A DNA stretch of 64,000 nucleotides. It comes from Stylophora pistillata (taxonomy: Eukaryota). Location of the stretch: the NCBI RefSeq assembly GCF_002571385.2, contig NW_019218491.1, positions 45,363 to 109,362 of the forward strand. The letters run 5' to 3'. Position numbers: made by a program. Below, one piece after another: positions 1,063 to 4,000 of the stretch. Every line of letters begins with the position of its first letter. Position 1 is the first letter of the stretch.

Positions 1063-4000
1063 TAAAAGTCTTGAATTGCATTAATCTAATGATCCAGTTT
1101 TTAATAAAAATGCATACATCAATAAAGTGGGATACAAACCTTGATAAGGATACTCCCTTCATCATATCCAAGTGCAACATTGTTTGAACCTTTTAGCATA
1201 GCCATGCTCCAAACTCTTTCTAGACCATAGTTAAGGGTGCTCTCCAGTCGGTACGTGTTGGCTTGCCAAATGCGCACAGTACCTTTGTTGACAAAAGAAA
1301 TTACATACAATGCACACATCCAATAACAAATAAACTGGTGTTTAGCCACATTTAAAATAGTCAATTTCAATTTCTAACAGCTATTACATGTAATTAAGCT
1401 TGTCTGTAACACTTTCCATCATCTCAATGAAACACAGAAAAAATATAATTGTTGCATGTGTATAAAAAAAAAAAATTATTTAAATCTGAACATACCATCC
1501 TCTGAGCCAGTCAAAATGATTGGTAATTCAGGGTGAAAACCAACACAAGAGATGTTCTGGGCATGTCCCTCAAGTGTTTGAACACAAGTTTTATTCTGAA
1601 ATACACACAACAATCAGTCCCTACTTCACACAAAAATTAATAAATGTAAAACTATCCTACCCACACAAAAGTAGACGACAAGAAAAGAAAAACTTTTGCC
1701 CTACAAAATACATGTTTGAAAAAGTGATTGATTATGTAATTACCGCATTTATTCGTCTATAAGCCGAACTCGGCTACAAGCCAAGACCCTAAACTTCCGT
1801 CTGTTTTAATCGGGAAGGTTCTTTAAACATTTAAATTGAAAATACTTGGCTATAAGCCGAGACCATATTCAGAGAACTCCATTCTCAAAAAAACTGAAAT
1901 GAAACGCAAAAGTTTCGAAACAGAAAAGAGCTTCAATACAGTGCTGCCGTCAAAAACAATTCTGAGATAACCAGAGAGTAAGTCATCAGCTAGTCACTAG
2001 AGGAAAGATCAAGAGAACCTCTTCAATGGGAGCTCGAGATGTCAGCAAAACGCACAACAAGGGGCCGTTACATTCTGAAATATCTGCGGCTGGATGAGAG
2101 ATTACTTGATTGGTTTACAGAGCAGAGAAGCCAAGATAAGTTTTCTTTTTACTTGATCACAAACTTCAACACCGTAACATGTGACGATCGACGAGTTTGT
2201 TTACCAATCATGGGAATGGGCAATTCTGATTGGTTAGCTTTTTAAAACACTTTCGCAAGCTCTATAACTACAATACACTTGTTCAAAACCTGCAGAATCT
2301 CTGATACTCTAGACGGCATGAAAGATGAAGCAATCTACTCGGAATAAATGGCAGAACTAGCGGATGAGGAGGAGATGGATGATGAATTCCACGCCGACAT
2401 TGAGGACAAACAGTAAGCCATATTTACTACTTGCCAAAAACAACAAACTGCTGCTTTGGAAGCAACCACATATTTAAAGTCAATGACCAACTTCAACTTC
2501 TTTTGTTATTTACTTCTACATGCAATATCTCGGCTTATAGACGAATATATTTATGTTTCCTTTGAATTTGCTGTTTTGAAAAAATTATGTTTGGAAAAAC
2601 ACTCGGCTATAAACCGAGAACCCTTCTCTAGCTCAAATTTTCGAGATTTTGGTAAAGTTTTCTGAAAAAATTGCTCAGCTTAGTGATGAATAAATATGGT
2701 ATTCTGTTTTAGTGCCAGAATGCTGTTGCAAGGAATCTGGGGATAAATTAGCCCTTTTTATTTAAATAGACGCAACAAATTTAATACTGGTCTAACAGTC
2801 AACAGGAGATATTCGCAAAAAGAGTGCATAGAGATGTATGCACTGCCGTAAAGAATTGTAGGTAACATTTCATTGTGATTTCAACCCCTCCAATGTTATT
2901 TCATATATAGAACACAATCATTTACTTTGCAGTTGACTTTTACCATTGGCAACCAGTCCAAAAATAAATTGACTTTCTGTAAATCAGTAACCTTCTTGTT
3001 TAGTAACACTTCTCATCTTAAGTGTGAACCACCCTTAGCAGGACATTATGGTGTGTTTTAGTGCCAAGCAATTAATACTCATATTGACTCTCCCCCCCCC
3101 TAGAGTTTTTCAAGGTCCTTTTAAAAAAAAAAAAACACTTTTTGTGAAAAATTTTCCTCAATAAAGACTATTATTATTGTTATTTAAATGGTTACTTGTC
3201 AATGATATGAGAAACTTCAGTTTGCAATTTGCTGGGACTGTAAGTTACCCTTCATGGCTGAGTATCCATCGAGGAAGAGGAAGTGGAACACCCAGATAAG
3301 CTTCATGGATCACCCTTGCAAACTGGGATAAGTTAATGCCACCAGTAATTATAACATAACCAAAGTAAAGCGCGTGCTCTGATTGGTCAATTTAGCATCC
3401 CCCATTTGCCCATGCGTGTATGCTGCTGACATGAGCAAATGCAAAGACTATTTTTCTATCTTGTTTTTTCTGGTCACATAAGATTTGTTAAATAAAAGGG
3501 AACTCTTTAGCTACAATTTATCAAACAATGTTATGTTATAAAACAAATGGTAAACACCACAGCATACACTATTGAGTTATGGATGCACTTGGGAGGTTTG
3601 CTAAGCACTCAAGAAGCTAGAGTCGCTCTCAGCTATCGCCTCGCGCGACTCTTATGCTTCTTTCGTTAATTATAATGATGGTATGCTGCAAGATGGTACC
3701 AGTTTCTTTGCTACATTTGCATCACAGGATTGACTCAAAAGGAACAGATTTTCTACATCCAATGCCCTCATTTCAAAATCCAAGCTTGAAGGTGTTCAGA
3801 ATAAATTCCATAAGTTTGCTCAGTTGTTTAACTTACTGTAATTCTTATAGGGTTGAAAAGAGATGTTTTGAAAAGAGTCGCTTCACGTCCTGAGCCTGGG
3901 TATGGTGGGACAGCTGGATACAAAAAGTCTCTTGCATTGTTGGCATAGTGACCAATAACATAGCCATCTGCAAACAAGTACAAGATTACTAAAAGCTATT

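What the first reader, a model, noticed from the sequence alone, without database searches (positions are those of the whole stretch)
1496..3967. SPATA6 5' half and COPB2 3' part meet in frame: fusion gene, deletion allele or misjoin
Seen: SPATA6 exon 5 ends at 3837 in phase 0 with a GTAAGT donor. The next recognisable exon on the same strand is the COPB2 NKTCVQ exon, starting at 1595 in phase 0. In the 2.2 kb between them I found only a pogo remnant, a truncated hairpin element and unassigned sequence: no SPATA6 exon with the LEFST-type strand that closes the domain, and none of the roughly 200 N-terminal COPB2 residues, here or elsewhere in the window. Known: the N-terminal beta'-COP propeller binds dilysine cargo motifs and COPB2 is normally essential. 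Inference: splicing 3837 to 1595 would give ...NPIRIT-NKTCVQ..., a SPATA6 domain replacing most of the first propeller. This is also the only break in the strictly alternating gene orientation. Misassembly is at least as likely as biology.
Basis: partly seen in the sequence, partly recalled or inferred. Interest (0 to 1): 0.72.

Follow-up and report, generated by a model that had tools for sequence, protein, structure and literature searches.

The report
Two half genes joined, probably misassembly
In this coral scaffold the front half of a sperm gene (SPATA6) runs straight into the back part of an essential vesicle-coat gene (COPB2), and this is most likely an assembly error rather than a real fusion gene.

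Summary
On the minus strand, SPATA6 exons 1-5 (7045-3837, residues 1-138) are followed 2,241 nt later by COPB2 exons that start at residue 218 (1595 onwards). Both boundaries are phase 0, so splicing them would stay in frame. tblastn finds no SPATA6 residues 139-420 and no COPB2 residues 1-217 anywhere in the 64 kb.

The window is a scleractinian coral, Pocilloporidae-like, and not human.

In every relative fetched, both genes are normal:
- 18 of 18 SPATA6 proteins continue with the conserved next exon.
- 135 of 136 COPB2 proteins carry the normal upstream exon.
- 0 of 236 proteins hold both genes.

In 3 of 3 informative anthozoans the two genes lie on different contigs. The scaffold has N gaps, and one gap abuts a repeat. 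The junction interval holds a transposon-like element and a repeat truncated at 3666/3667.

A fusion protein would lack the last strand of the SPATA6 domain. It would also lack about 5 of the 7 blades of the first beta'-COP propeller, including the dilysine-binding residues.

I put an assembly artefact (misjoin or dropped segment) at about 0.72. A real but non-functional structural variant, a young partial duplicate and a functional fusion share the rest. Reads are needed to settle it. I built no joined spliced model.

The parts
6998..7045 (-). SPATA6 exon 1 (MPRKAMKVVVELDIHT), ATG at 7045, donor GTAAGT
6700..6837 (-). SPATA6 exon 2 (46 aa), phase 0 at both ends
   Evidence: (PF14909 E=1e-18)
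6547..6595 (-). SPATA6 exon 3 (49 nt)
6397..6444 (-). SPATA6 exon 4 (48 nt)
3837..3967 (-). SPATA6 exon 5. It ends in phase 0 at residue 138 (...NPIRIT) with donor GTAAGT, and is the last SPATA6 exon in the window.
3667..3836 (.). 170 nt of single-copy intron sequence next to SPATA6 exon 5
   Evidence: no other copy in the window
3348..3666 (+). Copy of a hairpin repeat family. Its left end is intact and its second arm is missing, so it is truncated at 3666/3667. This is a candidate breakpoint.
2618..3347 (.). Unassigned sequence holding a T run and a G run near 3090-3135; no exon of either gene
1747..2617 (+). Transposon-like element bounded by clusters of a near-palindromic motif (21-nt inverted repeats at 1747-1767 and 2530-2550). 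ORF 1994-2242 has a weak likeness to the pogo/Tc5 HTH.
1596..1746 (.). 151 nt of single-copy intron sequence ahead of the COPB2 exon, ending in the acceptor tgtgtatttcag
1496..1595 (-). COPB2 exon for residues 218-250 (NKTCVQ...GSED), starting in phase 0
1140..1282 (-). COPB2 exon for residues 251-298
352..451 (-). COPB2 exon for residues 299-331; the gene runs on past the window start

Best explanation
The junction is most likely an assembly artefact. In a gapped, repeat-rich draft scaffold of a pocilloporid-like coral, SPATA6 intron 5 was joined to the COPB2 intron that precedes the exon for residue 218. This could be a chimeric join of two loci. If the genes are neighbours in this lineage, it could instead be a dropped segment that held SPATA6 exons 6 onwards and the COPB2 exons for residues 1-217. 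Both genes are then normal in the animal, and the in-frame fit of the two phase-0 borders is coincidence. Shown here: the exon map, the missing parts, the normal state of all fetched relatives and the repeats in the junction. Inferred: that the join is artificial, and where it lies (candidate 3666/3667, the truncated end of a hairpin repeat).
For: 1. Both genes stop at intron borders, and the exons that remain are perfect. All 138 SPATA6 residues match P0135, and all 114 COPB2 residues match P0023.
2. Intron-coded residues differ from the nearest genomic relatives: 22 of 35 identical next to the COPB2 exon (P0003) and 15 of 25 next to SPATA6 exon 2 (P0121). Both halves are therefore under selection or very young.
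3. The missing parts are constitutive in relatives. 18 of 18 fetched SPATA6 proteins continue G(Q/E)P(L/V)RLEF after NPIRIT. 135 of 136 COPB2 proteins have (K/R)xWDY(Q/L) before the NKTC.Q exon; the one exception is a genomic ORF read through the same intron position. 0 of 236 fetched proteins hold both genes.
4. All 31 database hits that hold SPATA6 exon 2 are 420 aa or shorter.
That is 3 of 3 informative species; Nematostella is uninformative because the two records may come from different assemblies.
6. The window is a scaffold with two N runs. A copy of an intron-4 repeat family ends 2 nt from one of them.
7. The junction holds a transposon-like element and a repeat truncated at 3666/3667.
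8. The fusion product would lack PF14909 positions 126-139. It would also lack beta'-COP residues 1-217 out of a first propeller of about 300 residues (PDB constructs of 301-304 aa). Those residues include the yeast dilysine-site residues R13, K15, R59, D98 and D117 (PMC9960064, passages).
Against: 1. There is no N, no tandem duplication and no other visible discontinuity in 1596-3836.
2. Repeats are just as common in the clearly native SPATA6 intron 4, so repeats in the junction are weak evidence.
3. A truncated repeat copy is also an ordinary genomic feature.
4. The same-strand, 5'-half-then-3'-half order and matching phases are what a real deletion between tandem neighbours would give.
5. 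The contig comparison covers no scleractinian.
7. No reads, mate pairs or second assembly of this species could be consulted.
Confidence: 0.72

Rival explanations
1. This is a real structural variant (a deletion or rearrangement allele) carried, probably heterozygous, by the sequenced colony. The DNA is as written. Transcription from the SPATA6 promoter would splice exon 5 to the COPB2 exon at 1595 and yield an in-frame but crippled chimera. The other haplotype supplies normal SPATA6 and COPB2.
For: The sequence is continuous with canonical GTAAGT and polypyrimidine-AG sites on either side and matching phase 0. The gene order and strand are what a deletion between tandem genes gives. The truncated hairpin repeat at 3666/3667 could mark a real break.
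Against: A deletion needs the two genes to be neighbours, and in 3 of 3 comparable anthozoans they are on different contigs. The allele would be null for an essential gene; the title of bioRxiv 10.1101/135236 states that Copb2 is essential for embryogenesis (search listing). None of the fetched relatives shows the join.
Confidence: 0.15
2. These are young partial duplicates. Fragments of one or both genes were copied next to each other, for instance by transposon-mediated capture or a segmental rearrangement, while intact copies sit elsewhere in the genome.
For: A transposon-like element lies between the halves. The exons are still perfect, which fits a very recent copy.
Against: The SPATA6 half has its start codon, five correctly phased exons and upstream sequence, like a native locus. 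The COPB2 part runs on past the window start for at least three exons. Zero amino-acid changes in 252 residues, set against diverged intron-coded residues, argues for constraint.
Confidence: 0.09
3. This is a functional, lineage-specific fusion gene in which the SPATA6 domain replaces most of the first beta'-COP propeller.
For: The join is in frame and has good splice sites. It would remove the only break in the alternating gene orientation, as far as that was checked.
Against: It lacks the last strand of the SPATA6 domain and about 5 of 7 propeller blades, including the dilysine site. Pocillopora damicornis, whose COPB2 matches the window's COPB2 exons exactly, has a full-length COPB2 (P0023), and unnamed transcript-like records have full-length SPATA6 (P0135). 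None of the fetched cluster representatives is a fusion. The animal would have no normal COPB2.
Confidence: 0.04

Closest known systems
Chimeric joins and dropped segments in draft short-read scaffolds
   Same: Two unrelated or neighbouring loci are fused inside repeat-rich non-coding sequence. The conserved genes are cut at introns while their exons stay perfect. Gaps elsewhere in the same scaffold abut repeats.
   Different: No direct sign of the join (clipped reads, coverage drop) can be seen from sequence alone, and the breakpoint is only a candidate.
Normal cnidarian SPATA6 (for example Orbicella faveolata P0136, 418 aa; unnamed P0135, 420 aa)
   Same: Residues 1-138 are identical or nearly so, with the same start and the same PF14909 domain.
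   Different: The window lacks everything after residue 138. That includes the GQPLRLEFSTK... exon, which closes the domain and is present in 18 of 18 relatives.
Normal coatomer beta' (COPB2), for example Pocillopora damicornis P0023 (973 aa) and PDB 5a1u_D
   Same: Residues 218-331 are identical to P0023. The intron position before N218 is shared with at least one other genome (P0073).
   Different: Residues 1-217 are absent from the window.
Conjoined or fusion genes made by deletion between tandem genes
   Same: Same strand, an upstream gene's 5' exons followed by a downstream gene's 3' exons, with compatible phases.
   Different: Known functional cases keep whole domains, whereas here both domains are cut. 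No transcript or conservation supports it.

Membership tests
SPATA6 (Pfam PF14909) | Match to the N-terminal SPATA6 domain profile | tested here: met
   The exon 2 region scores 68.1 bits (cut-off 27). Exon 5 alone scores 24.1 bits, below cut-off, but is collinear with profile positions 85-125.
SPATA6 (Pfam PF14909) | Complete domain (profile positions 126-139) and the Ser/Arg-rich C-terminal half | tested here: not met
   No hit for residues 139-420 of three SPATA6 proteins anywhere in the window.
Coatomer beta' (COPB2) | Specific match to beta'-COP rather than to generic WD40 | tested here: met
   The 47-aa exon hits only beta'-COP chains (13 of 13, best E=2e-21). It is 100% identical to coral COPB2.
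Coatomer beta' (COPB2) | Complete N-terminal seven-blade propeller with the dilysine site | tested here: not met
   Residues 1-217 are absent from the window. The site residues R13, K15, R59, D98 and D117 (yeast numbering) fall in the missing part (PMC9960064).
Real fusion gene | Open reading frame kept across the join, with usable splice sites | tested here: met
   Phase 0 on both sides, GTAAGT donor and polypyrimidine-AG acceptor. The joined product itself was not built.
Real fusion gene | The join is seen in relatives or in transcript-derived proteins | tested here: not met
   0 of 236 fetched proteins hold both genes. All 31 hits holding SPATA6 exon 2 are 420 aa or shorter. Only cluster representatives were seen.
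Real fusion gene | The DNA join is supported by reads, or junction-spanning RNA | not testable with these tools
   No read sets, RNA-seq or eukaryotic genome collection were available.
pogo/Tigger (Tc1-mariner superfamily) remnant | HTH_Tnp_Tc5 or DDE_1 domain match | tested here: inconclusive
   Pfam found none at E<=1. The Atlas neighbours carry HTH_Tnp_Tc5 in only 17-18% of members, with 163 shared features, below the tool's mark of 170.
Hairpin (foldback) repeat family | Two complementary arms around a loop | tested here: not met
   The junction copy ends before the second arm, while the copies at 62.7-63.1 kb and 11.0-11.6 kb have it.

The most novel reading that the evidence does not exclude
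The join is real DNA in this coral. A heritable allele, or a lineage-specific gene, would express an in-frame chimera from the SPATA6 promoter in sperm or ciliated cells. In that chimera the SPATA6 domain replaces five blades of the cargo-binding propeller of coatomer beta'. The rest of the protein, which assembles into the COPI coat, is kept. The chimera could act as a tissue-restricted, cargo-blind or dominant-negative coat subunit.
Probability: 0.06. Interest if true: 0.5.

Novelty: not a real feature. Interest (0 to 1): 0.12.

Why it matters
If it is an artefact, it matters for annotation. A gene caller would produce a false SPATA6-COPB2 fusion, or two truncated models, in this coral, and the real SPATA6 3' half and COPB2 5' end would be missing or misplaced. 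If it is real, it would be a natural allele that removes the dilysine-binding propeller of an essential coat protein, which would deserve a look. Nothing here points that way beyond the one-in-three coincidence of frame.

Tried and rejected
- I searched for the missing exons at low stringency (word size 2, E up to 10-20) on both strands of the whole window and found none.
- I looked for a fusion among database proteins holding SPATA6 exon 2 (31 hits) or the COPB2 exon (613 hits, best 120 listed) and found none. A check of all 236 fetched proteins agreed.
- I tried to list cluster members, to learn which named species hide behind the representatives and whether a fusion model is among them. The tool answered that its database is switched off, so I did not pursue it.
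- I used my last homologue search on full-length COPB2, hoping to compare contig lengths in Acropora, Montipora and Orbicella. None of these appeared among the 120 listed, so no scleractinian comparison was possible.
- Pfam on 10 ORFs of the junction and intron 4 gave no transposase domain.
- A search for papers holding both gene names found two human cancer gene-list papers and nothing on a fusion (listing only).
- A search for Pocillopora assembly-error papers gave six titles, none read.
No coral assembly could therefore be searched.
- The spliced SPATA6-COPB2 product was not joined, searched or folded. All searches were done exon by exon.

Full report
**What the window is.** The window has 35-45% G+C, short introns and two N runs (28806-29086 and 38549-38567), neither of them near the finding. 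The three COPB2 exons are 100% identical at the protein level to coatomer beta' of Pocillopora damicornis (P0023). They differ from Porites at two residues of the third exon. The window is therefore a scleractinian coral, most like Pocilloporidae, and not human. ORFs read through introns in the nearest genomic relatives differ from the window in their intron-coded part. Next to the COPB2 exon 22 of 35 residues are identical (P0003), and next to SPATA6 exon 2 15 of 25 are identical (P0121), while the exon-coded residues are identical. These nearest genomic records thus differ from the window in their introns, and both gene halves are under constraint or very young.

**Check of the observation.** On the minus strand the SPATA6 exons are:

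| Exon | Coordinates |
|---|---|
| 1 | 7045-6998 |
| 2 | 6837-6700 |
| 3 | 6595-6547 |
| 4 | 6444-6397 |
| 5 | 3967-3837 |

- All SPATA6 exons have AG/GT borders and consistent phases. Exon 5 ends in phase 0 after ...NPIRIT, followed by GTAAGT.
- Pfam PF14909 matches exon 2 (E=1e-18, profile positions 7-77) and exon 5 (E=3.9e-5, positions 85-125 of 139). The last 14 profile positions are missing.
- The COPB2 exons are 1595-1496, 1282-1140 and 451-352. The first starts in phase 0 behind a good acceptor. They align to residues 218-250 and 252-298 of the 905-aa chain 5a1u_D.
- tblastn of full-length coral proteins against both strands of the whole window finds only COPB2 residues 218-331 and SPATA6 residues 1-138 (three queries).
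The number of missing COPB2 residues is 217.

**The 2,241-nt interval.** Read from the SPATA6 side, it consists of:
- 170 nt of single-copy sequence (3836-3667).
- A copy of a repeat family (3666-3348). Its other copies in the window, at 62735-63084 and 11014-11560, carry a second, complementary arm that this copy lacks.
- 730 nt of unassigned sequence holding a T run and a G run.
- An element of about 870 nt (2617-1747) bounded by clusters of a near-palindromic motif, with 21-nt inverted repeats.
- 151 nt of single-copy sequence ahead of the COPB2 exon.

Pfam finds nothing there. The Atlas gives only a weak lead to HTH_Tnp_Tc5. The truncated end of the hairpin repeat at 3666/3667 is my candidate breakpoint, but truncated repeat copies are ordinary. 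The clearly native SPATA6 intron 4 is just as full of repeats.

**What relatives show.**
- Cnidarian SPATA6 is very conserved. In 18 of 18 fetched proteins that contain NPIRIT, the next residues are G(Q/E)P(L/V)RLEF..., the strand that closes the domain.
- In 135 of 136 fetched COPB2 proteins the NKTC.Q exon is preceded by (K/R)xWDY(Q/L). The one exception (P0073) is a genomic ORF read through an intron at the same position.
- None of the 236 fetched proteins holds both genes.
- All 31 database hits holding SPATA6 exon 2 are 420 aa or shorter.
- Full-length SPATA6 (P0135, 420 aa, unnamed) matches all 138 window residues, and full-length COPB2 (P0023) matches all 114. Normal versions of both genes therefore exist in close relatives.
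A fusion model could be hidden inside a COPB2 cluster.

**Are the genes neighbours?** Protein rows give the length of the contig that encodes them, so different lengths mean different contigs.

| Species | SPATA6 contig (bp) | COPB2 contig (bp) |
|---|---|---|
| Actinia tenebrosa | 195,518 | 177,224 |
| Actinostola sp. | 701,025 | 550,977 |
| Xenia sp. | 11,199,855 | 9,578,000 |

Nematostella is uninformative because the two records may come from different assemblies. No scleractinian had both genes listed, even after a further search. This is evidence against a simple deletion between tandem neighbours, but only a modest one.

**What the product would be.** I did not build, search or fold the joined model; everything was done exon by exon. 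From the parts:
- The product would carry a SPATA6 domain without its last strand.
- That would be fused to beta'-COP from residue 218. The first propeller is about 300 residues (crystallised N-terminal constructs are 301-304 aa), so about five of seven blades would be gone.
- The missing part includes the dilysine-site residues R13, K15, R59, D98 and D117 in yeast numbering (PMC9960064, passages read).
- COPB2 is reported as essential for embryogenesis (bioRxiv 10.1101/135236, title and start of abstract in the listing).
- Two phases agree about one time in three, so the open frame carries little weight (inference).

**Verdict.**

| Explanation | Probability |
|---|---|
| Assembly artefact (chimeric join, or a dropped segment if the genes are neighbours in this family) | about 0.72 |
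| Real, probably heterozygous and non-functional structural variant | about 0.15 |
| Young partial duplicates | about 0.09 |
| Functional fusion gene | about 0.04 |

A copy of an intron repeat ends 2 nt from the N run at 38549, which shows that this assembly breaks at its repeats. No tool here sees reads, RNA-seq or another coral assembly, so the question stays open until those are checked. A search for both gene names found no paper on such a fusion (2 papers, both human cancer gene lists by title, not read).

Noticed in passing
window 4021-4302, 26689-27025, 38570-38681: A repeat family in SPATA6 intron 4 has two more copies in the window. The copy at 38570-38681 ends 2 nt from the N run 38549-38567, so an assembly gap sits at a repeat edge.
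   Followed up: partly
window 28327-28695 (-) and 30304-30852 (-): There is a B4GALT-like gene. One exon matches Glyco_transf_7N (E=2e-12). A 182-aa ORF further upstream on the same strand may be its N-terminal exon; Pfam found no family for it. The 281-N run at 28806-29086 lies between its exons.
   Followed up: partly
window 35912-36232 and 37886-38161 (-): Two exons match CFAP96-like (PF15239; E=4e-17 and 5e-27). This is a second cilia or sperm-flagellum gene in the same window as SPATA6.
   Followed up: no
window 4572-4680 and 4419-4570: A 46-nt inverted repeat (93% complementary, 17-nt loop) lies next to a 150-nt repeat. That repeat has four more copies in the window (13.9, 16.1, 38.3 and 49.1 kb). 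Both look like miniature transposon copies.
   Followed up: no
window 44000-46000: There is strong G-over-C skew (0.31) with long Pro/Ser/Leu-rich repeat ORFs on the minus strand. These produce spurious low-complexity tblastn hits to the Ser-rich SPATA6 tail.
   Followed up: no
window 16274-21955 (+): Several long open frames lie on the plus strand (207, 173 and 365 aa), and one carries a poly-Q run at about 20.5 kb. Pfam found no family for the two tested. This is probably one large Ser-rich gene divergent from SPATA6.
   Followed up: partly
protein P0073 (unnamed genomic ORF): It reads through an intron that ends exactly before the NKTC.Q exon. The intron position before COPB2 residue 218 is therefore shared with another genome.
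   Followed up: partly
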